Below are positions 1-13,540 of a stretch of DNA of 64,000 bases, piece by piece. This stretch comes from Gemmatimonadales bacterium (lineage in GTDB: Bacteria; Gemmatimonadota; Gemmatimonadetes; Gemmatimonadales; GWC2-71-9). A program made the translations under genes and the position numbers. The DNA lies in NCBI GenBank assembly GCA_040877595.1, contig JBBDNM010000062.1:10911-74910 (forward strand). Reading direction: 5' to 3'. Below the pieces are notes generated by a model. That model was not told where the DNA came from, made no database searches, and was given only the letters and a program-made list of their open reading frames with translations. Each line of letters begins with the position of its first letter. Within the stretch, counting starts at the first letter, position 1.

Positions 1-3000
1 GGGTCGTCCATCAGGTAGTCCACCGTGTCGCCGCGGAAGACGGTGGTGTGGCCGCCGCTTGGAGCGAAGGAGCGCGTGTTGGTGGTTGAGAACTGGCGGA
101 AGTAGGCGGCCACGCGGAGCGTCCCGCCAGTGATGGCGCTGTCGGTTGACGCTCCGGCGAAGATCACCGTATCGGCATTTATCTCCATGGCGCTGGACTG
201 GAGAAGCCGGCCGCTCTCGCGGGTCGCGAAGGTTGTCGTGTTGATGGTGCAGCTGTCACAGCGTACCAGGCCCGATCCTCCGACGTGCAGTGAAGCAACA
301 TTTGACGTTCCATTCAGGACCACACTGTCGGTCACGACCACGTTGCTGAACGGCGGACTGGTGAGCGTCATCGGCCCGGCGAGTTCGATGGTATCGGGTG
401 CAAGGGCCACGTTGCCGGAACCGCCGGCGTCGTCAAGCTCGATGTGGCTGGACACCACGGCGCGGAGCGTCGTGATCGCCGCCGTCCCCCCCCCAACGCC
501 GAGCAGGTGCAGGGTATCGCTGACGAGCGGGAACAAGCCCGTCACCTCCACATGCGCTCCGCCGCTTTCAAAGTCGGAAATGAACACCCGCGCGGCGCGC
601 ACGGGGGACGCAAGGGTAATGGAGTCCTCCGCCGGGGGATCGAAGGCGAGCGTCGCGAACCGCGAGGCGCCGGTGGCATCCGAGAACGTGAGGATGTGGT
701 TCCCGCGCGGGGACGCGCTCTGGAAGCTCACCACGTGGTCGAGCGTGGCGTGGAAGCTTGAATCCGACGCACCGCTCAGCTGGGTGAAGTCGCCGCCTAC
801 GACCATCGTGCCGTTGAGGAGCCGCCCGGCCGTCGAGCCACCGCCGAAGACGACGTTGCCGAGGACCGTGAGCGCCCCTTCGGGGAAGGCCATATGCAGG
901 GTGCCGGAATCGGCCGTGATCAGGTCTCCGTTCACCGTGACGCCAGCGAACGACCCGGTGAGGGCGAACAGGCCACCGCCGTCAATCACGAGCCGGTCCA
1001 TGCTGAAGGACGAGACCTCGTCCGCGACCACCGAGTCGCCGCGCACGATCACGGTGCGGTACGCACCGTCGGCGGGCATCAACTGGGGGCCCGCCACGCC
1101 GAGGAACACGGCGGTGTCCGGCTGGAAGATATTGCTCGACGAGGGGGTGAAGTGCAGCACGCCCTCGAGGTTCACGCGGCGCGGCCGGACGATGGCGCCC
1201 TCAAGGTTGACGCCGCTCAGAATCAAGCTGTCGCGAACAGCCAGTGCCCCAGGGCCACCAACAATCACCGGCCCACCACCGGCGGAATCCTGCACCGAGA
1301 CACGGTGGGTATAGACGTCCGACGCGAGGCTGATCGAGTCCCCCTGGTTCGCGGATCGCGTGAGCCGCACGTGGCCGAAATGCGACGCGGCGGGCCCTGG
1401 GGTCGTGAAGGAAACGATCGCGTTGGGCCGGAGAATGGTCGTGAAGCTCGAGTCCGCCGCGAAGCTCGTGCTCGAGCCCGTGTCGGTCTGCGTGAAATTG
1501 CCCAACACGTTGAGCGTGCCGGACTGCCACAGACCCGTAGCCCCGTTGAATGCGGCGTCGCCGGCAACCCGGATCGTGGCGAACGCCGCCATGATGATGT
1601 ACCCGCTTCCAGTCGTGACCAAGTTGCCGCCGACATCGATGAGGTCGGCTGTGTTGGGCGTGAACTGGCCGTCGCTGACGGTGAGGTCGCCGGCGATGCG
1701 GATCGGCGTGGTCGTGAAGTTGTTCGCTCCTCCCGTTACCTCGAGATGGTGGATCTGGCTGCCGGGGCCCATCGCGATCGATGTCGGCGCCGAGATGCTC
1801 GCGAGCTCCGTCACGTGGTTCCCGAACGCGTAGTACGCGGCCGAGTCGCCGGATACGCCGAGCGAAATGCTCGTCCCCGTACTGACGACCCGGCCGGACG
1901 TCAGCAGCCCGTTGGTGGAGCCGCCGCCGAAACTCAGGTTGCCGGCCAGCAGGCTGTCGCTCGCCTGCATGATGAACGTCCCGGTCCCGCGCGTCAGGAA
2001 GGTCCCGGTGGAGACATCGAACGTGGCGCCGTTCAGGTCGAGGTATCCGGCGGACACGACAGCAGAGTCGGTGACGGTGGTCCGCCCGCCCAGCACGATG
2101 CTGTCCTGGATCTCTAGGTTGACGACGGTGCCCTGGAGCACCTCCCCGCCGGCCGATCCTGTCATGATGACCCGGCCCGTGGAGCCGGTGACGCCGCCGC
2201 CGCCCGCGGCAACGTCGGTCGGCACCGTGATGTCGGACGTGCCGATGTTCAGGGTCCCCGACGGGTCGACCGTCAGGCCCGCGCCAATGGTGAGGTTGCC
2301 CGGCAGGGACGCGGTGCCATTCACGGTGAGCGCCTGATAGGGCAGGCCCAGGGGAATGGTCTGCGTCGCCCCGGCAAAGATTGTGTTGGCCACGTCATAG
2401 TCGCCCGATACGGACAGGGAGCCGCCGACCGTGAGCGCCGAGACCGAAAGACCGCTGCCCGAACCGGCGGTGACGTTTCCGAGCACCCCAAGCACGCCCG
2501 GGCTACCCACGCGGGCGTTGGCGCTCACGACCAGCGAACTGTCGAGCCAGGCGGTGCTCGTGAAATGCGTGCTGTCGGCCGACAGGCTCAGGTGGCCGAA
2601 TCCGGACGAGTCGGTCGTGGTGCCCGGCGTGTCGAAGTGCACCGTGGCGAGCGTGGGGTTGTCCAGGGTCGTCCGATGCGTGCCGCTGGCCCGGAACGCG
2701 TTGGACGTGCCCGTCTGCGTGAAATCCCCGCCGATGCTGAGGTCGCCGGCGGTGAGCCGGCCCGCCGTGCTGCCGCCGGCCATGGTCACCGAGCCGTCCA
2801 CGCGCAGCACCGTGCCGACCGTCTGCGTCAGCGTCCCGCCCGTCTGCGTGGCCAGGTTGCCGGTCACCGTGACGCTGGCGTTGACCTCGAGGTCAGCACC
2901 GGCACCCGCAATCGTCAGGTCGCCGTTTACCGTGATGCCGCCGGTCGCCTGGCGCGCGCCGGTGATGAGCAGACTCGGGAGGACGCCCTTGACGCCCAGC

Positions 3001-6000
3001 GGACCCGTGCCGCCGAGTTCGAGCACCCCGGGACCGGCGATGCTCGAGATGCCGCCGTCCACGACGCCCAGGCTCGTGAGCGTCACGGCGTCGGCGATGG
3101 TGAGCGACGCGCCGATCTCGACGATCAGGTCGCCCACGGTGGCAAGCGCGCCCACGGTGGGATAGTTCGGCGCGGACCACGGCACGAACACGTTGTCGCC
3201 GCTGGTCGGCGCGGTGCCGTCGTCCCAGTTGGCAGGGTTCGCCCAGTCGCCGTCGGCCGCGGCGGCCGTCCACAGGTCGGTCATGCCGGTGGGTGTGATG
3301 ATGAACTCCCCGCTCACCGCGCTGTCGAGGCCGGCGGTGACCACGCGCACGGTCACCCCGCTCACGAACCGGTCCACGCTCAGATCATTGAACGTGGCGA
3401 CGCCGTCCACCACCGTGACCGTCTTGGTGCCGGACAGGACCGGCGGGCAGATCTGGCAGAGGACCGGACCTTGCGGCAGGTTCGGGAACTCGATCGAGAT
3501 CTGCGTGGTATCGTCGCTGGTCACCGTGTTGCCGGACGCGTCCTTGAGGGCGACCTGGATCGCGCTCAGGGTCTGCGTTTCGGGCGCGTTGGCGGGCTGA
3601 ACCGTGAACTCCATGCTCGACGCCACGGAACTGCCCGCCAGGACGAGCAACGTGTCCGGGCCGCCGGCCACGATCACCGTCAGCGTGTCCAGCGCGATCC
3701 CCTCGATGGCGGGCAGGAGCACGTTGCCGAACGCGCCCACCGTGCTGTCCGCCACGAGGACGGCGAGACGGTCGCCGACCGTCGGCGTGTAGAACAGCTG
3801 GACGTCGAGCGTGCCGCCCCGCGTAAGAACGCCGTCCACCACCAGTTGGTCGTGGCCGCTCACCGGCACAGGGCCGCTCGCCTCGGCCAGCAGGATCACG
3901 CTGGCGTCGAACACCACGTCGCCCACCATCGTGAGCCGGCCGGGTGAGGCGCCCGGATCGATCGTGCCGAACAGCGTGTCCGGATCAATGGCGAGCAGGT
4001 TGAGCGTGCCGTCACCCTCGAGCCGGGACCCCGCACTTGGCGTAAACGGATCCCGGTCGAGCGTGGTGGTGCCGGTGTCGGCCCGGAGGACGCCGTTCTG
4101 TATCAGCCCCACGTCAAACCGATTGCCGTTGCCGACCCCCGCCAGGCTCCAGAGCAGGCCGTCGTTGACGAACAGCTTGTTGACGGACGTCGTGCCCCAG
4201 TCCACGTCGGCGCTGCCCTGCATCAGCCAAGTGGCCCCGACCTCGTTGAGGATGGTGGTTGGGTTGGAGCCCTCGAGGCGCACGACCCCGCCGTCCGGGA
4301 TGCGGAACACGCCCTGGTTACGGAACGTGCGCTGGTTGATGGTCCGGATGTTGGTGCTCGGCACGATCGCCGTAGCGGTTGCCGCGATGTAGGTCGTCCC
4401 GATACCAGCGTGGGTGCCGGCGGTCCAATGGAGCGAGTCCCGCACCGTGAAGGCGCCATCGCCGGTCACCGTGCCGCTGCTGTGATGGAATCGCGGCACG
4501 ACGATCGAGTCGCCCGCCGCCGCCGTCAGGGTGCCGTTGACCAGCTCGAGGATGCCGCTGTTCGGGAACGCGACGTCGCCCCCAAACCCAAACGCCGTGC
4601 CCGAGACGCCATCGAAGCGTACCCGGCCGGCGGGATCGATGTCCACCGTGCCCCCCAGCGTGCCGCCTCCGTCCAGGGTGAGGGCGAACGGGCCGACGTC
4701 CAGCAGGCCGGTCTGGGTGAACGCCACGTCAATGACGCCACCGCTATCTGCCCGGACCGTCCCGTCGTTCACGAGCGCCTTGCCGGTCGGCGTGGTGCCC
4801 CAGTCCATGGTCCGGGTGCCGAGGAACTCGATGGTCCCGGTGTTGACCACGCTCGTGGGGTTGCTGCCTTCCAGCCGCCAGATGCCCGTCACGAGCTGTA
4901 CCAGGCCGGCATTGCGGAACGTGCGCTGGCTCAGGACCTTGGTGTTGCCTGACGTCATCAGCGTCGTCGCGGTCGCCGAGAGGTAAGTGGTGCCGGGGCC
5001 GGTCTGCGTGCCGCTGCTCCAGAGGAGCGAGTCGGTCACGGTCAGGGCGCCGTCACCGGCCACTGTGCCGCCCGATTGCGCGAAGCGGGGCAGCACGATG
5101 GAGTCGCCGGCGGCGATGGTGATCGTATTGTTGATCAGCTCGACCCGGCCGGTGTTGGGGAACCGGAAATCGCTGGCAAAGACGACCGAGACATTCTGGA
5201 TGCGGAGCGCGCCCGCGGGGTCCACGTCCACCGTGTCGCCCAGCGTCGCGCCTTCATCCAGAATCAGCGTCGCCGGCCCCACCGTGAGCTGGCCGTTCTG
5301 CGTGAACGGCACGTCGATCGTGCCGCCGCTCAACGCGAGCAGGACGCCGTCGTTCTGGAGCAGCTTGCCGGTGGGCGTGGTGCCCAAGTCCATGGTGCGG
5401 GCGCCCACGAACTCGATGGTCCCGCTGTTCAGCACCGCGGTCGGATTGCTGCCGTCGAGCCGCCAGATGCCGTTCTCGAGGCGCACCAGCCCCGCATTCG
5501 CGAACGTGCGCTGATTCTGCAACTTGGTTGCCGTGCTCGTCAGCACCGCCGTCGCCCCCACCGGGATGTAGGTCGTGCCGGTGCCGGCGTGCGTACCGGC
5601 GCTCCAGAGCAGCGAATCGGTCACGGTGAGCCAGCCGTCGCCCGTCAGCGTCCCGCTGGTGTGCGCAAAGCGCGGCAGCACGATCGAATCCCCGGCCACC
5701 ACCGTCAGCGTCGTGCCCACGAGCTCGATCCGTCCCGTGTTCGGGAACGAGAAGTCGCTCGCGAACGCGACCGGCACGCTCTGGAAGCGGAGCACGCCGG
5801 CGGGGTCGACGTCCACGGTGTCGCCCAGGGTGGCCCCTTCGAGGAGGTCGAGCACCGCGGGCCCCACCGTGAGCTGGCCGTTCTGCGTGAAAGGCACGTC
5901 GATCGTGCCGCCGTCGGCGGCCAGCAGCACGCCGTCGTTCACCAGTGCCTTGCCAGTCGGCGTAGTGCCAAACTCGATCGTCCGGGCCCCCACCAACTCC

Positions 6001-9000
6001 AAGGTCCCGAGGTTCAGCAGGGTCGTGGGGTTGCTGCCGTCCAGCCGCCAGACGCCATTGTCGAGCTGGATCAGGCCGGCATTGTGGACCGTCCGCTGGT
6101 TCTGGAACTTGGTTGCCGTGCTCGTCAGCACCGCCGTGGCCCCCACCGGGATGTAGGTCGTGCCGGTGCCAGCGTGCGTACCGGCGCTCCAGAGCAGCGA
6201 ATCGGTGACGGTGAGCCAGCCGCCACCGGTCAGCGTGCCGCTCGTGTGGATGAACCGCGGCAACACGATCGAGTCGCCGGCCGCCACCGTGAGTGTCGTG
6301 CCCACGAGTTCGATCCGTCCCGTGTTCGGGAAGGAGAAGTCGCTGGCAAAGGTGACCGGCACGCTCTGGAAGCGGAGCACGCTGGCCGGGTCCACATCCA
6401 CCGTGCCGCCGAGGGTTCCGCCGCCCATGATGACCAGGGGGCCGCCCGCCGCCACGGTCACCGTCCCCTGCTGGGTCCAGCTGACCTCAATCGAGTCCGA
6501 CTCGGCGAGCAGGAGCCCGTTGTTGACGAAGCTCTTGCCCGCGTTCGTGCTGCCCCAGGTGATCCGGCGCCCGCCCACTGGGTCAATCGTCCCTCCCGTC
6601 TCGTTCACGATCTGGGTCGGATTGCTGCCCGTGAGCTGCCACCAGCCGCCATCCCACACTACGGTCCCAAAGTTCCGGAACGTCCGCGTGTCGAGAACCT
6701 TCGTGCTGCCGCCGGTGAAATGTGCCGTGGCGCTGGAAGCGAGAATCGTGGTTCCGGTGCCGCGCTGGGTTCCGGCACTCCAGGTCATCGTGTCTGTGAC
6801 CGTCAGCGTGCCATCGCCCTCGACGGACCCGCCCGACTGCACAAACTCGGATGCGGTGAGCGGACGGCCGACCTGAAGAATGCCTCCCAGCTGCGCGAGG
6901 CGGAGCAATGCCAGCGAGTCCCCGGCGGGGATGGTGAAGGTCGAGCTCACGAGCTCGACGAGGCCGGTGCCGGGGTAAGTGAACGTCCCATCCAGCGTGA
7001 CCGGTCCGTCCTGGATCCGGAGGATGGCCGTATCCGCCACGTCCACCGTGCCGCCCAGCGTGCCGCCTTCCTGAATCACGAACCGCCCTGCTTCGACCGA
7101 CACCGTGCCGGCCTGCGTGAACACCACGTCCACGGAGTCGTTCGAGCCCAGCAGGGTCCCATCGTTCACAAAGCTCTTGCCCGTCGGCGTGCTGCCCCAG
7201 GTGATCCGGCGCCCGCCCACCGCGTCAATCGTCGCCCCCGTCTCGTTCACGATCTGGGTCGGGTTGCTGCCTGTGAGCTGCCACCAGCCGCCGTCCCACA
7301 CGACGGTCCCGAAGTTCCGGAACGTCCGCGTGCTGAGGGCCTTGGTGCTGGTGCTCGTGAGATAGGCCACTGCCCCCCCCGACACCTGGGTGGTGCCAGA
7401 GCCGCTCTGCGTTCCGGCGCTCCAGATCAGGGAGTCCGTTACCGTAAGGGTCCCGCTTCCCTGGAAGATCCCGCCCGACTGGGCGAAGCGGGCCACCGTC
7501 AGGGTGCCGTCCCCCTCGAGGGTTCCGCCCGACTGAATGAAGCGTGAGAACGCCAGGGAATCGCCGCTCGGGAGCGTGAGGGTAGAGTTCAGAAGCTCAA
7601 CCCGTCCCGCGCCCGGGTATTCGAAGGTGGCTTCGACGGTGACGGGGGCATCCTGGACCCGGAGGGCCGCGGAATCCACGACGTCCACCGTGCCACGCAG
7701 CGTGCCACCCTCCTGAATCACGAACAGGCCTGACGCCACCGAGACCGTGCCGTTGTGGGTGAACAGTACGTCCACCGAATCGCCTGCCCCCAGCAGGGTC
7801 CCGTCGTTCACGAACGACTTGCCCGCGTTCGTGGTGCCCCAAGTCAGCCGCCGGCCGCCCACGGCGTCGATCGTGGCCCCCGCCTCGTTGACCACCTGGG
7901 TCGGATTGCTGCCCGTGAGCTGCCACCAGCCGCCGTCCCACACGACGGTCCCGAAGTTCCGGAACGTCCGCGTGTTGAGGGCCTTGGTGGCCGTTCCAGT
8001 AAGCGTCGCCGAATTGGTGGACGTCACGAGGGTGACACCGGTGCCGCTCATGGTGCCGCCCGACCAGAGCAGGTCGCCGTCGATCGTGATCGTGGCCGGT
8101 CCAGTGAGGGTGCCCGACGACAACGCCAAGGTGGTGGTCGGGCCGAAGAGGCCCGCCGTATCGACCGTGAGGGTGCCGCCCTCGATGCTCACCGTAGCGC
8201 TGGATCCTACCTCAAGCACCGCGGCCGCGGCCGAGACGCCGGACCCGACCGTGACGACATAACTGCCGCTCGCGATGATGCGTACCGTGTCGAGTGCCGT
8301 AGGCACAAGACCCGTGTTCCAGCGGGCCGGATCGTTCCAACTGCCGCTCACCGGCTCCGCCCAGAACGCCCCGGTCGGCGGGAACGTGATGTCGAACGTG
8401 GCGCTCGTATCGGGCGCGAGACCAACGGCCGTCGCCACCAGCTGGTACCCACCGCCGGCGTTGTCCACGCTCAGGTCGTCAAAGGCCGCCTGGCCACTCA
8501 CGGCAAGCACCCCGAGGGTACCGGACAGGATCCCGCCGGCGCCGGCGGTATCGAGCAGGCTGATGGTGATACTGTCGGTGGCCGTCGTCAGCAGTTGGCC
8601 GAGGGCGTCACGCACCGTCACGGTGATGACCGGCGCGATCGTGACACCCAACAGCGCGGTGGTCGGCTGCCCATCAAACGCGAGCCTGGCCGCGACCTGA
8701 TTGATCACCACCTGCGCCGTGTCGGTAATCGTGTCGGAGGCGGCCTCAACCAGTGCCACGCCATTGGCGAGCGCGGTGACGAGGCCGTTTGCATCCACGC
8801 TGGCAAGGGCCGGCGACAGCGACGTCCACGTGATGGTGGCGCCCGGCACCACGGTCGCGCTCAGGTCGAACGCGGTGGCCGCAAGGCGCACCGTGTCGGT
8901 GAGAGACGCCAGGTCGGTGCTGTCGGGCGTAATGACCACGCTGGCGACCGTCTGGCCGACGGTCAGCGTGGCGGTGTCGGCCACGCCGTGTGCGGTCGCA

Positions 9001-11498
9001 ATCACCGAGATGGTGCCGGCCAGGCCGGCCGTGACAAGCCCCGTGCCATCAATCGTCGCGACGCTGGAGTCGGTGGTCTCCCACAGGACCGCGGTCGCCA
9101 CCATCTGGCCGAGGCTGTCGGTCAGGGTGGCCGTGAACGGCGCGGTGGCGCCCGCAAACGTCAGGGTAGTATCGGAGGGCGCGATCACGACTGTCGCGAC
9201 GCGCTGGTCCACCACGAGCGTCGCCGTGTCGGCGGCAATCCCCGTGGTGGCGATCACGCTCACGGTCCCGTTGGCGATGGCGGTCACAACGCCGGCCACA
9301 TCAATGGATACGATGCTCGAGTCGGTCACTTCCCACGTGAACACGGCGCCGACGATCACGTTGCCGCCGGCATCGCGCGCCACGGCCGTGAACGGCGCGG
9401 TGGCGGTCAGGGCGTGCAGGGAGTCGAGGGCCGGCGCCACCAGCACGGACGCGGCGGCGCCAATCGTGATGTTGAAGGTGGCGCTTGTGGCGGCGGCCAG
9501 GCCCGTGGCGGTGGCCTGCAGGGCGTAGTTGGTGCCGGCGCTGTCAATCGAGAGCCCCGTGAACGTCGCGACGCCGGCGACAGCGGCTTGGGACATCGTG
9601 CCTGACAGCAGGGCGCCGCTCGTGCCGGTGCCGCCCACGATGGCCATCGTCACTCCGTCGGTAGCTCCGGTCGCGACGTTGCCGTACTGGTCATGAATGG
9701 CCACGGTAGCATTCAGCGCCTCGCCCGCGTTGGCCGTGACCGGATCGGTTGTGAACGCGAGCTGCGTCGGCGTCGCCGGGGTTACCGTCGCGGTGAAGGT
9801 CACCGTATCCACGGCGGCCAGGGCGGCGGTGACCGCATGGGCGGTCCCGGCCAACGTGCCCTGCGTCCACTGAATGGCGGCGCGCCCGTTGGCGTCAGCC
9901 GCCGTGCTGGCCGCGCTCGTGCTACCGCCACCAAGGGCAACGGCCCAGGTCACCACAGCGCCGGGTACCGTGTTGCCGAGGGCGTCGGTGGCGCGCACCA
10001 CCAGCGAATCGCCGAGCACGGCGGCGGCCGTGTCGGTCTGCGCGTTGCCGGCCAGGATCGTGAGCGTGGTCGCGGCGCCGGGAATCGCGGTGGCGGTGAA
10101 CGTCACGGCCAGCGTGTCCATCTCCGCGGCCTGCGGAGCGTTAAGTGGCGTCGCCTCGTCGCGGAGTCGCGTGGTGTCGGTGGGCAGGGAGCCCTGATGG
10201 GTGACGCTCACCGTCTGGGGCGCCGTGCCAATCACGAACGCGCGCAGGCTATTTGGTCCGACAATCGCGCCGAGGCTCCAGGAGCCCACGGTGGCGATGC
10301 CGGACGCGTTGGTGGTGGCCGCGGCACCGGTCAGGATCCCGCCACCCTGCACGATCTCGAACGTCACGGACGCAGCTGGCACCAGGTTGCCGTGCGCATC
10401 CGTCACGGTCACCGCCGGCGACACGGCCACCGCGACACCGGCAACAGCCGTCTGCCCGTCGCCCGCCGCGATCGCGATGGCGGCCGGGTCACCCGCGATC
10501 GCGGTCGCAGTGAAGTCGGTGGTCAGGCTCGGGGCAACAGCCACGGTCGCCCGCGTGGTCTGGGCACCGGCCGCGCCGCCCAGGCGCCAGGTCGCGCGCG
10601 CATCCCCGCTCGCGTCCGTGAGCGCCGAGTCGGGCGTCACCAGCCCGCCACCCGCCGTGGCGGCGAACCGCACCCAGACACCCGCCACCCCCAGGCCGTC
10701 GGTCGCGGTCACGCGGGCCACGAGCTCCTGCGCCAACAGACTGTCCACGATCGCCGTCTGGGCGTTCCCTCCCTGCACGGCGATCGCGCTCGGCGCGGGC
10801 TGGATAGACGCGGTGACCGTGTCGGCCTGATTGGTGAGAAGGCGGGCGACCACCAGTCCGGTCCCGCGGGTGCCGCGCGCCCGGATCAGGCCGTTGGCGG
10901 GGTTCGGCACCACGACGCGCGCGGTATCCAGCGACTCCCAGGCAATCGGCGTGTTGGGGATCGGGACGCCCGCGGAGTCCAGGGCCTCAGCCACCAGCGT
11001 CACGGAATCGCCCGCCAGCAACGGCACGGGTTCCGGCCCCAGGATCCGGACGGACGCCGCCTGGCTGCCGACTCCCACATACGTGATGGGGATGGACACG
11101 AGGGGCGGCGGCGCCGTCCCGCTGGTGGGGGTGACCGGCACCGGCCCGCCGCGGAAGACCACGACGCCGCTCGTGTCACGCAGCGCCACCTCCAGCGTGA
11201 ACGTTTCGCTGGAGCTGAACATGGCCACAGTGACCACGAGCTCCACGGAATCCTGGCCGACCGCGAGCTGGATCGTCGTGTCGCGGGCAGGGAGGGTGTC
11301 GGTTGACCGGCGGATGACGAATTGGATCGAGCTGAGCGGGATGATGCCCGCGAACTGGCTCTGGAACAGCGGCGCGATCCCGAACCGCCCCTCAATACTC
11401 GGGGCGGGACTGACCGAATCCGTACAGCTCGCGATCAAGCCCCCCGCCGTGAGCACGGCGAGCAACAGGGACAAGCGGCGGGCCCGGCGCGCGGCCAT
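1..11498 (-). CDS. Giant surface lipoprotein / adhesin-like protein, >3832 aa, C-terminus lies beyond window start (lipoprotein signal; Ig-like Big-type domain array; beta-helix-like repeat modules)
   Basis: I hand-translated the complement frame whose codon upper coordinate is 2 mod 3. Sampled stretches were 3-143 (..DSAITGGTLRVAAYFRQFSTTNTRSFAPSGGHTTVFRGDTVDYLMDD), ~5570-5760 (ASDFSFPNTGRIELVGTTLTVVAGDSIVLPRFAHTSGTLTGDGWLTVTDSLLWSAGTHAGTGT), ~8280-8400 (FWAEPVSGSWNDPARWNTGLVPTALDTVRIIASGSYVV) and 10830-11498. No stops were seen. None of the seven minus-strand ORFs listed in 1-11500 is in this frame, as expected for one ORF with no in-window stop. The ATG is complement(11496..11498). The N-terminus MAARRARRLSLLLAVLTAGGLIASCTD has a lipobox (LIAS|C). 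Downstream come repeated Ig-like segments (..VTATDGLGVAGVWVRFAAT.., ..DSSVATIDGTGLVTAGLAGTISVIATA..) and then G/T/V-rich beta-strand repeats. Confidence 0.85.
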   Translation of the reverse strand, partial: MAARRARRLSLLLAVLTAGGLIASCTDSVSPAPSIEGRFGIAPLFQSQFAGIIPLSSIQFVIRRSTDTLPARDTTIQLAVGQDSVELVVTVAMFSSSETFTLEVALRDTSGVVVFRGGPVPVTPTSGTAPPPLVSIPITYVGVGSQAASVRILGPEPVPLLAGDSVTLVAEALDSAGVPIPNTPIAWESLDTARVVVPNPANGLIRARGTRGTGLVVARLLTNQADTVTASIQPAPSAIAVQGGNAQTAIVDSLLAQELVARVTATDGLGVAGVWVRFAATAGGGLVTPDSALTDASGDARATWRLGGAAGAQTTRATVAVAPSLTTDFTATAIAGDPAAIAIAAGDGQTAVAGVAVAVSPAVTVTDAHGNLVPAASVTFEIVQGGGILTGAAATTNASGIATVGSWSLGAIVGPNSLRAFVIGTAPQTVSVTHQGSLPTDTTRLRDEATPLNAPQAAEMDTLAVTFTATAIPGAATTLTILAGNAQTDTAAAVLGDSLVVRATDALGNTVPGAVVTWAVALGGGSTSAASTAADANGRAAIQWTQGTLAGTAHAVTAALAAVDTVTFTATVTPATPTQLAFTTDPVTANAGEALNATVAIHDQYGNVATGATDGVTMAIVGGTGTSGALLSGTMSQAAVAGVATFTGLSIDSAGTNYALQATATGLAAATSATFNITIGAAASVLVAPALDSLHALTATAPFTAVARDAGGNVIVGAVFTWEVTDSSIVSIDVAGVVTAIANGTVSVIATTGIAADTATLVVDQRVATVVIAPSDTTLTFAGATAPFTATLTDSLGQMVATAVLWETTDSSVATIDGTGLVTAGLAGTISVIATAHGVADTATLTVGQTVASVVITPDSTDLASLTDTVRLAATAFDLSATVVPGATITWTSLSPALASVDANGLVTALANGVALVEAASDTITDTAQVVINQVAARLAFDGQPTTALLGVTIAPVITVTVRDALGQLLTTATDSITISLLDTAGAGGILSGTLGVLAVSGQAAFDDLSVDNAGGGYQLVATAVGLAPDTSATFDITFPPTGAFWAEPVSGSWNDPARWNTGLVPTALDTVRIIASGSYVVTVGSGVSAAAAVLEVGSSATVSIEGGTLTVDTAGLFGPTTTLALSSGTLTGPATITIDGDLLWSGGTMSGTGVTLVTSTNSATLTGTATKALNTRTFRNFGTVVWDGGWWQLTGSNPTQVVNEAGATIDAVGGRRLTWGTTNAGKSFVNDGTLLGAGDSVDVLFTHNGTVSVASGLFVIQEGGTLRGTVDVVDSAALRVQDAPVTVEATFEYPGAGRVELLNSTLTLPSGDSLAFSRFIQSGGTLEGDGTLTVARFAQSGGIFQGSGTLTVTDSLIWSAGTQSGSGTTQVSGGAVAYLTSTSTKALSTRTFRNFGTVVWDGGWWQLTGSNPTQIVNETGATIDAVGGRRITWGSTPTGKSFVNDGTLLGSNDSVDVVFTQAGTVSVEAGRFVIQEGGTLGGTVDVADTAILRIQDGPVTLDGTFTYPGTGLVELVSSTFTIPAGDSLALLRLAQLGGILQVGRPLTASEFVQSGGSVEGDGTLTVTDTMTWSAGTQRGTGTTILASSATAHFTGGSTKVLDTRTFRNFGTVVWDGGWWQLTGSNPTQIVNETGGTIDPVGGRRITWGSTNAGKSFVNNGLLLAESDSIEVSWTQQGTVTVAAGGPLVIMGGGTLGGTVDVDPASVLRFQSVPVTFASDFSFPNTGRIELVGTTLTVAAGDSIVLPRFIHTSGTLTGGGWLTVTDSLLWSAGTHAGTGTTYIPVGATAVLTSTATKFQNQRTVHNAGLIQLDNGVWRLDGSNPTTLLNLGTLELVGARTIEFGTTPTGKALVNDGVLLAADGGTIDVPFTQNGQLTVGPAVLDLLEGATLGDTVDVDPAGVLRFQSVPVAFASDFSFPNTGRIELVGTTLTVVAGDSIVLPRFAHTSGTLTGDGWLTVTDSLLWSAGTHAGTGTTYIPVGATAVLTSTATKLQNQRTFANAGLVRLENGIWRLDGSNPTAVLNSGTIEFVGARTMDLGTTPTGKLLQNDGVLLALSGGTIDVPFTQNGQLTVGPATLILDEGATLGDTVDVDPAGALRIQNVSVVFASDFRFPNTGRVELINNTITIAAGDSIVLPRFAQSGGTVAGDGALTVTDSLLWSSGTQTGPGTTYLSATATTLMTSGNTKVLSQRTFRNAGLVQLVTGIWRLEGSNPTSVVNTGTIEFLGTRTMDWGTTPTGKALVNDGTVRADSGGVIDVAFTQTGLLDVGPFALTLDGGGTLGGTVDIDPAGRVRFDGVSGTAFGFGGDVAFPNSGILELVNGTLTAAAGDSIVVPRFHHSSGTVTGDGAFTVRDSLHWTAGTHAGIGTTYIAATATAIVPSTNIRTINQRTFRNQGVFRIPDGGVVRLEGSNPTTILNEVGATWLMQGSADVDWGTTSVNKLFVNDGLLWSLAGVGNGNRFDVGLIQNGVLRADTGTTTLDRDPFTPSAGSRLEGDGTLNLLAIDPDTLFGTIDPGASPGRLTMVGDVVFDASVILLAEASGPVPVSGHDQLVVDGVLTRGGTLDVQLFYTPTVGDRLAVLVADSTVGAFGNVLLPAIEGIALDTLTVIVAGGPDTLLVLAGSSVASSMEFTVQPANAPETQTLSAIQVALKDASGNTVTSDDTTQISIEFPNLPQGPVLCQICPPVLSGTKTVTVVDGVATFNDLSVDRFVSGVTVRVVTAGLDSAVSGEFIITPTGMTDLWTAAAADGDWANPANWDDGTAPTSGDNVFVPWSAPNYPTVGALATVGDLIVEIGASLTIADAVTLTSLGVVDGGISSIAGPGVLELGGTGPLGVKGVLPSLLITGARQATGGITVNGDLTIAGAGADLEVNASVTVTGNLATQTGGTLTQTVGTVLRVDGSVTMAGGSTAGRLTAGDLSIGGDFTQTGTSNAFRASGTHRTTLDNPTLATVHFDTPGTTTDSSGFGHLSLSADSTHFTSTAWLDSSLVVSANARVGSPGVLGVLGNVTAGSGSGLSVSALTVGGSLSVSGDYDVANTIFAGATQTIPLGLPYQALTVNGTASLPGNLTIGAGLTVDPSGTLNIGTSDITVPTDVAAGGGGVTGSTGRVIMTGSAGGEVLQGTVVNLEIQDSIVLGGRTTVTDSAVVSAGYLDLNGATFDVSTGTFLTRGTGTFIMQASDSLLAGNLSFGGGSTNGLLTSGRVVSTGTSISLGVSGDSAAYYAFGNHVTELASISAPTSIAMGPGSQIHHLEVTGGANNFTTTPIRIAGDLTVSDGQFTPNTADLIDVGGNLVTTGSGYIIMAAFATIRVAGDAAFNGATGLWQSGTLNVLGNFTQTDTGSSTSFAADSSFTTILRPNAIVSFTTPGPAASHFGHVRLTRSANQGDSISLASDVYTHRVSVQDSAGGGPVIVGGPGALAVRDSLILSGVNLEGAIVRPRRVNLEGVLHFTPSSSNIFQPDTAVFLGVAGPQLMPADGAYRTVIVRGDSVVADEVSSFSMDRLVIDGGGLFALTGSFAGVTVNGDLITADSGTLHMAFPEGALTVLGNVVFGGGSTAGRLLNGTMVVGGDFTQLSGASDSSFHATLDHVVSFQSASPRGNHILTFSDATGASRFATLAFDPPAEDSITLASPVRAARVFISDFESGGAHVEVTGLFPLVSDTLHLLGVGGGTAAITTLRAVVSSHIELDDAGGSGNVALAPDTIELAGPMTLTSPPFSNVVVTDSVVLNGTSNVASLHVGGSGLVRCDSCTINTTTFATRESGRLLQSSAMEINADTVIFAGASTDSAITGGTLRVAAYFRQFSTTNTRSFAPSGGHTTVFRGDTVDYLMDD
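4387..8030 (-). repeat. Six tandem coding repeats (units ~594, 585, 585, 593, ~642, ~640 bp; 195-215 aa modules) inside the giant gene
   Basis: The phase marker atgtaggtcgt(g/c)cc recurs at 4387, ~4981, 5566, 6151 and ~6744, with more diverged copies near 7386 and 8025. Plus-strand shadow ORFs 4987, 5575 and 6160 start with near-identical peptides (MPVPACVPALQSSESVTV..). Shadow ORFs 6160, 7105 and 7747 share ..WVGLLPVSCHQPPSHTTVPKFRNVRV... Adjacent 585-bp copies appear roughly 85-90% identical by eye over the first ~250 nt. Confidence 0.85.
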
Positions 11499-11587
11499 GC
11501 AATTCCAATGGGCGGGAGGGTCAGCAAGTTTGCACCTGCGGACCCTTATCGGCAAGCAGCTACGACGCGTTCCGGGTGTGAGCTACA

Positions 11588-13447
11588 TCACGAAACGGTG
11601 CCGAGCCGCTCCAGCCAGAGATACTCGTCGGCCAGGACACGCCGCGCCATCTGGTACACGTCGTCGTCGTCGTTGTCGAAGAGCCGGTCGAACCGGTCTT
11701 CGATCCGGCGCCGCGCCAGCTTGGACGCCACATCGGCCAGGGTCGCGGCCTTCTCGGCAAAGGCGCGCTCTTCGGCCTCGGAACTCGTGCGGAGACTCTG
11801 GGCCTTCACACACACCGCCGTGATGGCAAACAGCTCGGCCCCGATGTCCACCAGTCGGGCCAGCACGCTCTGACGCTTCTCCAACCCCGGCCCGAACCGG
11901 ACAATGGCGTGGAACAGTCCGCGCGCTAACCGCCGTGATGTGCGGTTCACATAGCGGATATGCGCGGCCAGCTTGCCGAACTCGCGGTAGCGCGGCCAAC
12001 GACCCCACCCCAGCCAGCGGGACGGATACCACCACCCATAGAACAAGCCGGCCGACACCAAGCCCTTCAGCTTGGCCCCCATCGAGCTGTCGGCTTGGGC
12101 CAGACCGCCCGCCACCTTCAAATGCGTGTCCACTGCCTCGCGGGCGATGAACAACCGCATGATCTCGCTCGAACCTTCAAAAATCAGGTTGATGCGGAAG
12201 TCGCGGAGCATGCGTTCGACCGGCACGGGCTCCTCGCCGCGCGCCTTGAGTGACCACTCGGTCTCGTACCCGCGGCCGCCGCGCACCTGGAGCGTGTCGT
12301 CCACGATACGCCAGCCGCGCTCGGTGGTCCACATCTTGGCGATCGCCGCTTCGAGGCGGATGTCGTAGTTCAGGTCGTTCATCATGACCGCGATTTCCGA
12401 CATCGCATCCATGACCCAGGCATCGGCCGCGATGGCGCCGATCTTCTGTGCCACGGCATCGTGCCGGCCCACCGGCTGGCCCCACTGCACGCGCGATTGG
12501 CCGAACTTCCGCACGTACTCGACACACTTCTTGGCGGCCCCCGCCGCCACCGACGGAATGGACAGCCGCCCGGTGTTGAGCGTAATCAAGGCGAGCTTCA
12601 ACCCCTTGCCTTCCCCCAAGAGCACGTTGTCGGCCGGTACCTTGACGTTGGTGAACCGCATCACCGCGTTCTCGATGCCGTGCAATCCCATGAAATGGCA
12701 GCGCGTGACGACCTCGACGCCTTCCCACGCGGTCTCGACGATGAACGCCGTGATGCCTTTGGTGGTCTTGGCCATCACCACCATGATCTCGGCGATGGAC
12801 CCGTTGGTGCACCACAGCTTCTCGCCGTTCAGGATCCAGTGCTGGCCGTCCGGGGTGAGCTCCGCCGTCGCGGTCATCCGGGCGGGGTCGCTGCCGACCG
12901 TGTCTTCGGTCAGCGCAAAGGCGCTCACGGCACCCTTGGCGAGTCGCGGGAAGTATTGCTTTTTCTGTGCATCCGTGCCGAACAGCTTGAGCGGTTGCGG
13001 CACGCCAATGGATTGATGGGCCGAGAGCAAGGTGGCGATGGAGCCGTCCACGCTGCCGACCAGGGAAATGGCGCGGTTGTACGTGGTTTGCGTGAAGCCC
13101 AGGCCGCCGTACTCCTGCGGAATCTTGATGCCAAACGCGCCCAGCTTTCGGAGGCCGTCGATGACCTCGGGCGGCACCTTGCGGTTCCGGTCAATGGCGC
13201 TGGCATCCACCGTAGCCATGAAGGCGGCGAGCTGCTTGAGCCAGGGCTTGGCGCGCGCTTCCTCTTCGGCATCCACGACATCGGGCCAGGGGTGAATCAG
13301 GTCAAGACGGAGCGTGCCCTCGAAGAGCGAGCGCACGAAGCTCGGGGCTTTCCAATCTTTCTGGCGGGCCCCTTCGGCGACGGCGCGCGCTTCCTTTTCG
13401 GACACTTCGCGCACGGGCTTCCGGGTATCAGCAGCGACGGAGGTCAT
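11588..13447 (-). CDS. Acyl-CoA dehydrogenase family protein with long C-terminal extension (VLCAD/ACAD9-like, 619 aa)
   Basis: This is the lower part of track ORF 11588..14209. Diagnostic peptides include ..GAFGIKIPQEYGGLGF.., ..AFALTEDTVGSDPA.., ..LNGEKLWCTNG.. and ..LQVRGGRGYETE..IFEGSSEIM... The chosen start MTSVAADTRK is ATG at complement(13445..13447), preceded by GGAG 7 nt upstream. The upstream 254 codons of the ORF are Arg/Gly-rich and overlap a convincing plus-strand gene. Confidence 0.85.
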   Translation of the reverse strand: MTSVAADTRKPVREVSEKEARAVAEGARQKDWKAPSFVRSLFEGTLRLDLIHPWPDVVDAEEEARAKPWLKQLAAFMATVDASAIDRNRKVPPEVIDGLRKLGAFGIKIPQEYGGLGFTQTTYNRAISLVGSVDGSIATLLSAHQSIGVPQPLKLFGTDAQKKQYFPRLAKGAVSAFALTEDTVGSDPARMTATAELTPDGQHWILNGEKLWCTNGSIAEIMVVMAKTTKGITAFIVETAWEGVEVVTRCHFMGLHGIENAVMRFTNVKVPADNVLLGEGKGLKLALITLNTGRLSIPSVAAGAAKKCVEYVRKFGQSRVQWGQPVGRHDAVAQKIGAIAADAWVMDAMSEIAVMMNDLNYDIRLEAAIAKMWTTERGWRIVDDTLQVRGGRGYETEWSLKARGEEPVPVERMLRDFRINLIFEGSSEIMRLFIAREAVDTHLKVAGGLAQADSSMGAKLKGLVSAGLFYGWWYPSRWLGWGRWPRYREFGKLAAHIRYVNRTSRRLARGLFHAIVRFGPGLEKRQSVLARLVDIGAELFAITAVCVKAQSLRTSSEAEERAFAEKAATLADVASKLARRRIEDRFDRLFDNDDDDVYQMARRVLADEYLWLERLGTVS

Positions 13448-13540
13448 CGCGGAACTCCAGGCAGGAGTCAGAGGGATCCAACGCGTCAAATATAGCCGCC
13501 CCGTTGCGCACTCGGCGAGGGTGGGGCCAGATTCCCCGCT

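What the first reader, a model, noticed from the sequence alone, without database searches (positions are those of the whole stretch)
1..11498. The largest gene in the window (>11.5 kb, minus strand) is absent from the supplied ORF track
The region is covered in the track only by overlapping plus-strand ORFs with Arg/Gly- or Ser/Pro/Thr/Val-rich junk translations. Reading the complement strand from ATG 11496-11498 gives a lipoprotein signal peptide, Ig-like domain repeats, two 'W..W.DP..W..G..P...D.V' module starts (~8350 and ~3230) and hundreds of beta-strand-like repeats. The reading stays open down to base 3. No listed minus-strand ORF occupies that frame, which fits a single ORF dropped for lack of an in-window stop. 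Any automated annotation based on the track would miss it and call antisense artefacts instead. A protein of more than 3832 aa anchored by a lipid at its N-terminus is an unusual topology for an adhesin-like beta-helix protein.
Basis: seen in the sequence. Interest (0 to 1): 0.55.

Follow-up and report, generated by a model that had tools for sequence, protein, structure and literature searches.

The report
Giant lipid-anchored beta-helix surface protein gene
The first 11.5 kb of the window is the start of one real, very large gene of a Gemmatimonadales bacterium, encoding a lipid-anchored protein of more than 3832 residues made of Ig-like domains and beta-helix repeats; it belongs to an unnamed but widespread family of such proteins.

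Summary
Complement(3..11498) is 3832 codons with no stop, while the other five frames have 12 to 176 stops. It is a real gene. Public gene calls on identical DNA start at the same ATG, GC3 is 0.89, and Big_2 passes Pfam's cut-off.

Layout of the product:
- a lipoprotein signal ending in the lipobox IAS-C25
- a family-specific N-terminal domain
- about 10 Ig-like domains
- a W-motif cap followed by seven tandem repeats of 170 to 214 aa, with an AlphaFold model at pLDDT 96 that is all short beta strands
- a cap and an Ig-like spacer
- a second W motif followed by at least five looser repeats, the last one cut by the window edge

About 2800 residues match no Pfam, NCBIfam or PDB sequence. The gene is missing from the ORF list only because ORFs that run off the window are not listed.

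The lipid-anchored topology is not a one-off. The C-terminal part has 678 relatives, many of 2000 to 6195 aa. Nearly all that are complete at the N-terminus carry the same lipobox and N-domain. A related MAG has three such genes downstream of the same acyl-CoA dehydrogenase gene.

My best reading is an outer-membrane-tethered surface fibre or adhesin. That function is inferred, not shown. The true stop could not be reached.

The parts
3..11498 (-). Open 5' part (3832 codons) of one giant gene. It continues beyond window base 1; bases 1-2 are a partial codon.
   Evidence: 0 stops. GC by codon position is 0.63/0.56/0.89, like neighbouring genes. A public gene call on identical DNA starts at the same ATG.
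11424..11498 (-). Residues 1-25: lipoprotein (signal peptidase II type) signal peptide, MAARRARRLSLLLAVLTAGGLIAS-C25.
   Evidence: Fits the lipobox pattern. It is conserved in the closest relative, upstream of that protein's annotated start: MAPRRTRLLTLLFAAVSAGLLVASC. 76 of the 150 best relatives also carry a lipobox.
11094..11423 (-). Residues 26-135: family-specific N-terminal domain directly after the lipidated Cys.
   Evidence: No Pfam hit above cut-off; Cadherin-like at E=0.011 only. Local phmmer finds the domain in 13 relatives and jackhmmer in 76 of 150; 61 of those 76 also have the lipobox.
8379..11093 (-). Residues 136-1040: about 10 Ig-like domains (Big_2 type, Big_1-like and others), the presumed stalk.
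   Evidence: Pfam Big_2 at 38.1 bits passes its cut-off; Big_1 and Big-like are sub-threshold. Internal similarities of 32 to 57% link the domains.
8136..8378 (-). Residues 1041-1121: first W motif (W..W.DP..W..G..P...D.V) and the N-terminal cap of beta-solenoid region A.
   Evidence: Read directly from the sequence. The motif appears in the consensus of 34 aligned sequences. Modelled with pLDDT above 90.
3987..8135 (-). Residues 1122-2504: seven tandem type-A repeats: 1122-1335, 1336-1548, 1549-1746, 1747-1941, 1942-2136, 2137-2334, 2335-2504.
   Evidence: Self-BLAST and MAFFT give 40 to 81% pairwise identity. DNA direct repeats have periods of 585 and 642 nt. The AlphaFold2 model of residues 1040-1560 has pLDDT 96.2 and pTM 0.90 and consists of short beta strands throughout. 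41 relatives in several phyla.
3639..3986 (-). Residues 2505-2620: C-terminal cap of region A (IDPGASPGRLTMVGDV...HDQLVVDG...GGTLDVQL).
   Evidence: The same element closes the repeat run in P0010, P0044 and P0051. No Pfam or NCBIfam hit.
3285..3638 (-). Residues 2621-2738: Ig-like spacer domain, which contains a CxxC.
   Evidence: 41% identity to the Ig-like domains at residues 601-689 and 962-1049.
3174..3284 (-). Residues 2739-2775: second W motif, the N-cap of beta-solenoid region B.
   Evidence: Read directly from the sequence. Weak sub-threshold match to the N-terminus of Pfam Amnionless, E=0.038. Relatives hit Amnionless and G8 weakly at the same motif.
3..3173 (-). Residues 2776-3832: region B, with at least five looser type-B repeats marked by GGST.G.L..G.L...G.F.Q....F.A.G.H.T near residues 2908, 3192, 3320, 3553 and 3782. 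The last copy is cut by the window edge.
   Evidence: Motif scan and self-BLAST. The AlphaFold2 model of residues 2740-3440 is a confident all-beta structure over residues 2740-3080 and largely so over about 3150-3340. phmmer finds 678 relatives, 108 of them at E<=1e-30.
11588..13447 (-). Upstream neighbour on the same strand: acyl-CoA dehydrogenase, 619 aa, 89 nt from the giant gene. This is context and a synteny marker, not part of the protein.
   Evidence: Pfam Acyl-CoA_dh_N/M/1. The exact protein is on record as MEX0691897.1, Gemmatimonadales bacterium. A 61% identical ACAD precedes the giant-gene array in L007.

Best explanation
Window 3..11498 (minus strand) is the first 3832 codons of a real gene of a Gemmatimonadales bacterium.

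Shown or directly supported:
- The product starts with a lipoprotein signal peptide. Cys25 would become the lipidated N-terminus.
- A conserved N-terminal domain and about 10 Ig-like domains follow.
- Two beta-solenoid regions come next, each opened by a W-rich cap motif.
- Region A is seven tandem repeats of 170 to 214 aa, closed by a cap.
- Region B is at least five looser repeats and runs off the window.

Inferred mechanism:
- The protein crosses the inner membrane unfolded through Sec and is lipidated.
- It is carried to the outer membrane and displayed on the cell surface, held by its N-terminal lipid.
- The Ig-like domains act as a stalk, and the beta-helical rods project outward as a fibre that binds surfaces, polysaccharide or other cells.
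- If fully extended, the visible part would be of the order of 100 nm, far longer than a periplasm is wide. This is my estimate from typical Ig-domain and beta-helix rung dimensions.

It is one member of a family of giant lipoproteins that occur as several paralogues per genome.
For: It is a gene:
- 0 stops in 3832 codons.
- Coding-type GC3.
- The same start is called in independent assemblies of identical DNA.
- Big_2 is above Pfam's cut-off.
- The closest relative is 55% identical from residue 1.

It is a lipoprotein:
- The lipobox pattern is met.
- It is conserved in the closest relative, upstream of that protein's mis-annotated start.
- It is conserved in 76 of the 150 best relatives. Most of the rest are N-terminal fragments.
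- The N-domain co-occurs with the lipobox in 61 relatives.

The repeat regions are beta-solenoids:
- AlphaFold2 gives pLDDT 96.2 and pTM 0.90 for residues 1040-1560, with 58 short strands and no helices.
- pLDDT is above 90 for residues 2740-3080.
- All weak Foldseek hits are beta-helix proteins: autotransporter passengers, TpsA proteins, PL6 lyases, tailspikes and RsaA.

It is extracytoplasmic and probably surface-located:
- Type-A repeats occur in other phyla in proteins that carry the Pfam domains PF18962, PF07589 and PF00404. From my memory of Pfam these are the T9SS sorting domain, the PEP-CTERM anchor and the dockerin domain.
- The composition is acidic, Thr/Gly/Ala/Val-rich and Lys-poor, with only paired Cys (CxxC).
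- Relatives end in Cys-x(20-30)-Cys loops or in '...NWP', with no other domain.

Family and paralogy:
- 678 relatives, many of 2000 to 6195 aa.
- Three lipobox-bearing paralogues (2632, 3720 and more than 866 aa) lie downstream of the syntenic ACAD in L007.
Against: - No experiment or dedicated predictor (SignalP, LipoP) was available. Lipidation and localisation are inferred.
- No surface-export machinery, and no conserved partner other than ACAD, is seen next to the gene here or in L006 and L007.
- How a diderm outside Bacteroidota, spirochaetes or Neisseria would flip such a lipoprotein to the surface is unknown.
- The acidic residues after the Cys resemble the Bacteroidetes export signal. 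They also occur in other lipobox-bearing ORFs of this window, at least one of which (a solute-binding protein, 16469) I would not expect on the surface, so they prove nothing.
- There is no significant structural match to any solved adhesin: Foldseek E>=0.07, TM 0.1-0.3.
- The C-terminus lies outside the window and could carry a domain that changes the picture.
- Window bases 1-7944 have no independent assembly to confirm repeat copy number.
Confidence: 0.6

Rival explanations
1. It is a surface-displayed carbohydrate-active or carbohydrate-binding protein. The beta-helices would be polysaccharide lyase- or hydrolase-like modules that bind or cut extracellular polymers, not passive adhesive rods.
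For: The top weak Foldseek hit for both models is a PL6 alginate lyase (E=0.3 and 0.07). Other weak hits include polygalacturonases, phage depolymerase tailspikes and tapirins. Right-handed beta-helices are the usual scaffold of such enzymes (general knowledge).
Against: No hit is significant (TM 0.1-0.3). There is no Pfam Beta_helix, Pectate_lyase or NosD match and no recognisable catalytic motif. Seven near-identical tandem repeats look structural rather than catalytic.
Confidence: 0.15
2. It is an envelope-internal or shed protein. The lipid would hold it on the inner membrane or on the inner leaflet of the outer membrane, as a periplasmic or envelope scaffold. Alternatively the protein is released into the matrix or into outer-membrane vesicles, with the lipobox serving export only.
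For: Default Lol sorting in most diderms leaves lipoproteins facing the periplasm (general knowledge). No surface-export partner is seen nearby. In Bacteroides, acidic lipoprotein export signals direct cargo into vesicles (titles and abstracts of PMC6222051 and PMC10319031).
Against: A rod of about 10 Ig-like domains plus about 2800 residues of beta-solenoid is several times longer than a periplasm is wide (inference). The same repeat types are attached to extracellular sorting domains in other phyla.
Confidence: 0.15
3. It is a delivery stalk for a polymorphic toxin or other effector, like CdiA or other TpsA proteins, with the active domain at the C-terminus outside the window.
For: The C-terminus is missing. 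Giant beta-helical proteins with variable tips and several paralogues per genome are typical of contact-dependent competition systems (general knowledge). TpsA proteins (HxuA, HMW1, EtpA) are among the weak fold hits.
Against: No TPS secretion domain is present; the N-terminus is a lipoprotein signal instead. Full-length relatives P0044, P0050 and P0052 have no toxin or other C-terminal Pfam domain. Most relatives end at a module boundary ('NWP') or a short Cys loop. No immunity-like small gene pattern was examined.
Confidence: 0.07
4. It is not a gene: a chance open frame in GC-rich DNA, or an assembly chimera, with the plus-strand ORFs being the real genes.
For: The DNA is 68% G+C, which produces long spurious ORFs. 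Plus-strand ORFs of up to 823 aa exist, some with high GC3.
Against: The chance of 3832 open codons is about e^-86. The product has Pfam domains, hundreds of homologues along its length and confident folds. The plus-strand ORFs are Arg/Gly/Ala-rich shadows, and some share the third codon position with the real gene. The longest exact internal repeat is only 60 nt.
Confidence: 0.01

Closest known systems
Unnamed family of giant Gemmatimonadales lipoproteins, for example HEX9727682.1 ('hypothetical protein VGA37_04200', 3720 aa; P0193/P0044), and P0001 ('Ig-like domain-containing protein, partial')
   Same: - Same order of parts: lipobox, N-terminal domain, Ig-like domains, W motif plus type-A repeats plus cap, then W motif plus type-B repeats.
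- 45 to 55% identity over the first 500 to 700 residues.
- Same position downstream of an acyl-CoA dehydrogenase gene in L007.
   Different: - No relative above about 55 to 64% identity was found.
- This copy has more Ig-like domains and seven type-A repeats (P0044 has three by HMM).
- It is already longer than those relatives without having reached its end.
- The family has no name, model or described function.
Type V secretion passengers and two-partner-secretion exoproteins (Ag43, Hbp, EspP, Hap, IcsA; HMW1, HxuA, EtpA, FHA)
   Same: Long, Thr/Gly/Ala/Val-rich beta-helical rods on the cell surface with adhesive roles. They are the commonest weak fold matches. JGI names two type-A relatives 'fibronectin-binding autotransporter adhesin'.
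   Different: - The anchor is at the opposite end and of a different kind: an N-terminal lipid rather than a C-terminal barrel or a TpsB partner.
- There is no TPS domain, and full-length relatives have no autotransporter barrel.
- There is no significant sequence or structure match.
'Beta strand repeat-containing proteins' of Planctomycetota, Verrucomicrobiota, Acidobacteriota and Actinomycetota (NCBI's generic name; P0002 to P0041)
   Same: They share the type-A unit of about 200 aa (consensus SGGTL.G.G.LTV.G.L.WSGGTM.G.G.T...K.L..RT..N.GT..W.G), the opening W motif and the closing cap, at 28 to 35% identity.
   Different: - Those proteins carry other Pfam domains: PF18962, PF07589, PF00404 and PF00932. 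From memory these are the T9SS CTD, PEP-CTERM, dockerin and LTD.
- They lack the lipobox, N-domain and Ig-like stalk arrangement seen here.
Surface-exposed lipoproteins of Bacteroidota with a lipoprotein export signal (Lauber et al. 2016, PMC5080379)
   Same: An N-terminal lipid anchor on an outward-facing protein, with acidic residues just after the Cys. Here the sequence is C-T-D-S. In the family it is C-[GST]-[DR]-[ED]-x-[TP]-G-P, with D or E at +2..+5 in 73 of 77.
   Different: - The published signal is K-(D/E)2 or Q-A-(D/E)2 (abstract); the motif here differs.
- A similar acidic residue is also present in a probable periplasmic lipoprotein of this window.
- Bacteroidota examples are ordinary-sized proteins, not proteins of about 4000 aa.
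G8 domain (PF10162) and the Amnionless N-terminus (PF14828) of animal proteins
   Same: The W..NW....P...D.V.IP motif that opens a beta-helix. There are weak hits at this motif in relatives (E=2e-6 to 6e-3, below cut-offs) and in this protein (E=0.038).
   Different: All hits are sub-threshold and cover about 30 to 60 residues only. This is a shared cap motif at most, not family membership.
Giant genes of uncultivated bacteria (for example Omnitrophota; bioRxiv 10.1101/2023.11.21.568195)
   Same: A very long ORF that breaks in metagenome assemblies. [quoted passage not shown]
   Different: A different phylum and much smaller than the giant proteins that abstract discusses. No cell-wall-degrading domains were found here.

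Membership tests
Bacterial lipoprotein (signal peptidase II substrate; PROSITE PS51257 type) | A positively charged n-region, a hydrophobic h-region, and a lipobox [LVI][ASTVI][GAS]-C within about the first 40 residues. | tested here: met
   MAARRARRLSLLLAVLTAGGLIAS-C25 matches the pattern. It is conserved in the closest relative and in 76 of 150 relatives.
Bacterial lipoprotein (signal peptidase II substrate; PROSITE PS51257 type) | Actual diacylglyceryl modification and cleavage at the Cys. | not testable with these tools
   Needs palmitate labelling, globomycin treatment or mass spectrometry.
Bacterial Ig-like domain group 2 (Pfam PF02368 Big_2) | A score above Pfam's gathering threshold. 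| tested here: met
   38.1 bits against 22.8, two stretches, best at residues 768-847.
Bacterial Ig-like domain group 1 (PF02369 Big_1) and Big-like (PF22359) | A score above Pfam's gathering threshold. | tested here: not met
   25.6 against 34.9, and 23.9 against 27. These are similar domains, but membership is not established.
Right-handed parallel beta-helix (pectate-lyase-like; Pfam Beta_helix, NosD, Pectate_lyase) | A sequence match to a curated model. | tested here: not met
   No such Pfam or NCBIfam hit, even at E<=5, on whole or split sequences.
Right-handed parallel beta-helix (pectate-lyase-like; Pfam Beta_helix, NosD, Pectate_lyase) | A three-dimensional fold superposable on solved beta-helices. 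| tested here: inconclusive
Classical autotransporter (type Va) | A C-terminal 12-strand beta-barrel translocator (PF03797). | tested here: inconclusive
   The C-terminus is outside the window. Full-length relatives P0044, P0050 and P0052 show no such domain.
Two-partner secretion exoprotein (TpsA/FHA type) | An N-terminal TPS secretion domain (PF05860) after a Sec signal. | tested here: not met
   No hit. The N-terminus is a lipoprotein signal followed by a different domain.
PATR / autotransporter-associated beta-strand repeat (PF12951, TIGR02601) | A match to the repeat model. | tested here: not met
   No Pfam or NCBIfam hit.
T1SS RTX/LapA-type giant adhesins | RTX nonapeptide repeats and a C-terminal T1SS signal, with no Sec signal. 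| tested here: not met
   An N-terminal lipoprotein signal is present. There is no HemolysinCabind or RTX hit in 3832 residues. The C-terminus itself is unseen.
Bacteroidota-type surface lipoprotein with export signal (LES) | K-(D/E)2 or Q-A-(D/E)2 directly after the lipidated Cys (PMC5080379 abstract). | tested here: inconclusive
   Here the sequence is C-T-D-S. The family shows D or E at +2..+5 in 73 of 77. Other lipobox-bearing ORFs of this window, including a solute-binding protein, also have D or E there.
G8 domain (PF10162) / Amnionless (PF14828) | A score above the gathering threshold. | tested here: not met
   Amnionless at 13.2 bits against 30.4 at the second W motif; no G8 hit in this protein. 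Relatives are also sub-threshold, except G8 at 24.2 against 22.9 in P0052 with no stretch that passes on its own.

The most novel reading that the evidence does not exclude
This gene would represent an undescribed class of cell-surface fibre, widespread in Gemmatimonadales-like bacteria. Its defining features would be:
- proteins of 2000 to more than 6000 aa, tethered by an N-terminal lipid plus a dedicated N-domain
- two beta-solenoid repeat families that no curated model covers
- several paralogues per genome, arranged in arrays
- transfer to the cell surface by a lipoprotein surface-export route not yet known in this phylum
Probability: 0.4. Interest if true: 0.55.

Novelty: new variant of a known kind. 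Interest (0 to 1): 0.38.

Why it matters
Practical point: a raw ORF list that drops ORFs open at the window edge hides the largest gene here and offers antisense shadow ORFs in its place. Short-read assemblies also break inside this gene, at a 60-nt exact repeat.

Biological point: giant beta-helix surface proteins are well known, but the described ones are held by a C-terminal barrel, a partner transporter or a secretion tag. Here, and in hundreds of unnamed relatives, the anchor is an N-terminal lipid plus a conserved N-domain. About 2800 residues fall outside every curated domain model.

If these proteins are on the cell surface, Gemmatimonadota must have a way to move very large lipoproteins across the outer membrane. 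These little-studied soil bacteria would also carry a large, diversifying set of surface fibres.

The two repeat types and the N-domain could be turned into new family models, which would improve annotation of many MAGs.

Tried and rejected
Attempts to find the rest of the gene all failed:
- The peptide-pattern scan of GTDB genomes with residues 2767-3832 found nothing.
- Exact 45-mer scans of JGI metagenomes and GTDB genomes found nothing.
- The k-mer homologue search with residues 3300-3832 gave one hit at 29% identity.
- Contig look-ups through neighbouring genes returned only short contigs that end inside the gene. The 125.6-kb contig on record was not shown.
- Two look-ups used start codons that are not on record.

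Searches that failed or found nothing:
- The whole-protein homologue search timed out.
- One call had a frame error.
- The N-terminal 250-aa homologue search found nothing, although relatives exist. This is a sensitivity limit of that tool.
- Tandem Repeats Finder found nothing because the period exceeds 500 nt.
- Plain self-BLAST returned only the identity hit.
- PDB sequence searches found nothing meaningful.
- No sigma-70-like promoter or intrinsic terminator lies between ACAD and the gene.
- The literature search for Gemmatimonadota giant lipoprotein adhesins found nothing relevant.

Ideas rejected:
- The plus-strand ORFs as real genes.
- Membership of the autotransporter, TPS, RTX or PATR families.
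- The post-Cys acidic motif as evidence for surface export, because it is not specific within this window.
Full report
**1. Check of the observation**

Complement(3..11498) translates to 3832 residues without a stop. The other five frames of the same stretch contain 12 to 176 stops. The window is 67% G+C. From its base composition a random codon is a stop with probability of about 0.022, so 3832 open codons have a chance of about e^-86.

The frame shows a coding pattern of G+C by codon position (0.63/0.56/0.89), like the MFS transporter gene at 20213-21400 (0.62/0.50/0.84). The next in-frame stop upstream lies 29 codons above the ATG at 11496-11498.

The mechanical ORF list shows only plus-strand ORFs and four short minus-strand ORFs over 1..11498. 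The plus-strand ORFs are 16 to 21% Arg and rich in Gly and Ala. Some have high GC3 only because they share third codon positions with the true gene.

**2. Independent support that it is a gene**

Identical DNA exists in other public assemblies.
- A Logan contig of SRR27977662 equals window 7945..15016 with no mismatch. Its gene call starts at the same ATG and runs 1184 aa to the contig end.
- An NCBI MAG contig (GCA_040881015.1) carries a 251-aa fragment.

The Logan contig ends inside the longest exact internal repeat of the gene, 60 nt at 7273 and 7915. That explains why assemblies break here.

The neighbouring proteins are on record as belonging to a 'Gemmatimonadales bacterium' MAG. The acyl-CoA dehydrogenase is MEX0691897.1, and the longest contig on record is 125,639 bp. 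That contig was not returned. Scans of other collections found nothing, so the true stop could not be reached.

**3. Anatomy (residue numbers; residue i starts at window base 11498-3(i-1))**

- **1-25:** MAARRARRLSLLLAVLTAGGLIAS-C, a lipoprotein signal with the lipobox IASC.
- **26-135:** a domain with no curated model.
- **136-1040:** about ten Ig-like domains. Big_2 passes Pfam's cut-off; Big_1 and Big-like are below theirs.
- **1046-1075:** the first W motif.
- **1122-2504:** seven tandem type-A repeats of 214, 213, 198, 195, 195, 198 and 170 aa at 40 to 81% identity. The DNA periods are 642 and 585 nt.
- **2505-2620:** a cap element (IDPGASPGRL...), also found at the end of such repeat runs in relatives.
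- **2621-2738:** an Ig-like spacer.
- **2742-2772:** the second W motif.
- **2776-3832:** at least five looser type-B repeats sharing the signature GGST.G.L..G.L...G.F.Q....F.A.G.H.T. The last is cut about 25 residues after the signature.

Residues 1041-3832 have no Pfam, NCBIfam or PDB-sequence match.

**4. Fold**

With a 34-sequence alignment, AlphaFold2 models residues 1040-1560 at mean pLDDT 96.2 and pTM 0.90. The model has 58 short strands and no helices.

Residues 2740-3440 give pLDDT 80 overall. Confidence is above 90 for 2740-3080 and about 80 to 96 for roughly 3150-3340. The low-confidence stretches are about 3084-3148 and beyond about 3340.

Foldseek against the PDB gives no significant hit for either model. 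Every weak hit is a beta-helix protein: PL6 alginate lyases, Hbp, EspP, Ag43, IcsA, Hap, HMW1, HxuA, EtpA, tapirins, tailspikes, VacA and RsaA.

The beta-solenoid reading is therefore well supported. Membership of a particular beta-helix family is not.

**5. Relatives**

Type-A repeats have 41 detectable relatives at 28 to 35% identity, with source names pointing to Mycobacteriales, Phycisphaerae, Terriglobia and Verrucomicrobiae. Some carry the Pfam domains PF18962, PF07589, PF00404 or PF00932. From memory these are the T9SS sorting domain, the PEP-CTERM anchor, dockerin and LTD. That would argue that the repeat is an extracellular building block.

The closest relative is P0001, from a Gemmatimonadales MAG. 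It is 55% identical from residue 1 once its start is corrected, and it too is cut by a contig end.

A full HMMER scan with residues 2740-3832 against 1.84 billion cluster representatives finds 678 proteins at E<=1e-3 and 108 at E<=1e-30. The best full-sequence identity among the top hits is 36%. Many hits are 2000 to 6195 aa long.

Among the best 150:
- 76 have a PROSITE-type lipobox. Most of the rest begin mid-domain, so they are fragments.
- Iterated search with residues 26-135 finds the N-domain in 76, of which 61 also have the lipobox. The other 15 are truncated or have near-lipobox variants.
- Seven also contain type-A repeats.

P0044 (3540 aa) and P0193 (3720 aa; HEX9727682.1, 'hypothetical protein', Gemmatimonadales) have the same order of parts as this protein. 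They end without any known sorting, barrel or toxin domain.

**6. Genomic context**

Upstream on the same strand, 89 nt away, lies an acyl-CoA dehydrogenase gene. The genes beyond it are metabolic and transport genes. No promoter-like or terminator-like site is seen in the gap.

In the related MAG GCA_036397455.1, a 61% identical ACAD gene is followed by this series: a 2632-aa gene, a 332-aa gene, a 3720-aa gene, a 287-aa gene and a gene of more than 866 aa. The three large ones all start with a lipobox and the same N-domain, 44 to 45% identical to this protein.

More giant genes may therefore follow this one beyond the window. No secretion machinery is adjacent in any locus seen.

**7. How it most likely works**

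Shown:
- It is a Sec-type lipoprotein precursor by sequence.
- It has Ig-like domains.
- It has two beta-solenoid repeat regions.
- The lipobox plus N-domain anchor is conserved across a large family.

Inferred:
- After lipidation the protein is tethered by its N-terminus. About 10 Ig-like domains plus about 2800 residues of solenoid would, if extended, measure of the order of 100 nm. It therefore cannot be housed in a periplasm and is probably displayed on the outer surface.
- The Ig-like stalk would hold the beta-helical rods away from the cell to bind surfaces, polymers or other cells.
- Paralogue arrays and repeat-number differences suggest diversification of a surface repertoire.

The acidic residues after the Cys recall the Bacteroidetes lipoprotein export signal, K-(D/E)2 or Q-A-(D/E)2 (PMC5080379). 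In the family the motif is C-[GST]-[DR]-[ED]-x-[TP]-G-P, with D or E at +2..+5 in 73 of 77. However, other lipobox-bearing ORFs in this window, including a solute-binding protein, also have D or E there. I do not count this as evidence.

**8. Comparison, novelty and verdict**

In its likely working it resembles beta-helical adhesins of the autotransporter and two-partner-secretion kind. It fails their membership tests. It has no TPS domain, its relatives have no barrel, it has no PATR or RTX repeats, and its anchor is at the opposite end.

It is a member of an unnamed family that public annotation labels 'hypothetical protein' or 'Ig-like domain-containing protein'. I rate it a new variant of a known kind. 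The known kind is the giant beta-helix/Ig surface protein. The new aspects are the N-terminal lipid plus N-domain anchor and two repeat families without models.

The 'missing from the track' point is a property of that track. The 'unusual topology' is real compared with textbook adhesins but is the norm in this lineage.

Interest is moderate. Nothing here overturns expectations for environmental diderms. The family is large, uncharacterised and raises a concrete question about surface export of very large lipoproteins.

Noticed in passing
L007 (GCA_036397455.1, DASWIX010000021.1) 1-24763; compare window 3-13447: Synteny is conserved. In a related Gemmatimonadales MAG, an acyl-CoA dehydrogenase gene is followed by three giant lipoprotein paralogues (2632, 3720 and more than 866 aa), separated by unannotated genes of 332 and 287 aa. 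The window may therefore be the start of a similar array.
   Followed up: partly
L001 9830-10000 (upstream of P0001): The public start of P0001 is too far downstream. The in-frame upstream sequence encodes a conserved lipoprotein signal, MAPRRTRLLTLLFAAVSAGLLVASC, and aligns with this protein from residue 1.
   Followed up: yes
window 7273-7332 and 7915-7974: This is the longest exact repeat inside the gene (60 nt). The Logan contig L004 ends at window 7945, inside the second copy. Short-read assemblies break at the tandem repeats, so repeat copy number in 1-7944 rests on this assembly alone.
   Followed up: yes
N-termini of relatives P0043-P0192; window 11394-11423: The mature N-terminus has a conserved motif, C-[GST]-[DR]-[ED]-x-[TP]-G-P (C-T-D-S-V-S-P-A-P in this protein). 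It resembles the acidic Bacteroidetes lipoprotein export signal. However, lipobox-bearing ORFs elsewhere in the window (16469, 31493, 44749, 49544, 52702, 59658) are also acidic there.
   Followed up: partly
window 44749-47733 (+): A 995-aa ORF begins with a twin-arginine-like motif followed by a lipobox (MTDGMDRRKFLKVLGVTGGGTAALAGC). It may be a Tat-exported lipoprotein. Its domains were not scanned.
   Followed up: no
window 11588-14209 (-) and 13541-14185 (+): The mechanical 873-aa ORF over-extends the acyl-CoA dehydrogenase gene. Public calls start at 13447 (619 aa). They also place a 214-aa plus-strand gene with no Pfam hit at 13541-14185, inside the over-extension. Whether that small gene is real was not checked.
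   Followed up: partly
W motifs: window 8274-8363 and 3183-3275; P0050 residues 1134-1188; P0052 residues 360-426: The cap motif W..NW....P...D.V.IP gives weak, sub-threshold hits to the N-termini of the animal Amnionless and G8 domain models. This may be a shared beta-helix cap motif.
   Followed up: partly
C-termini of relatives (for example P0044, P0051, P0057, P0066; P0045, P0053, P0080): Many full-length relatives end either exactly at a module boundary ('...NWP') or in a short Cys-x(20-30)-Cys loop (for example '...FFACS' or '...NNACIIP'). No known sorting domain is present.
   Followed up: partly
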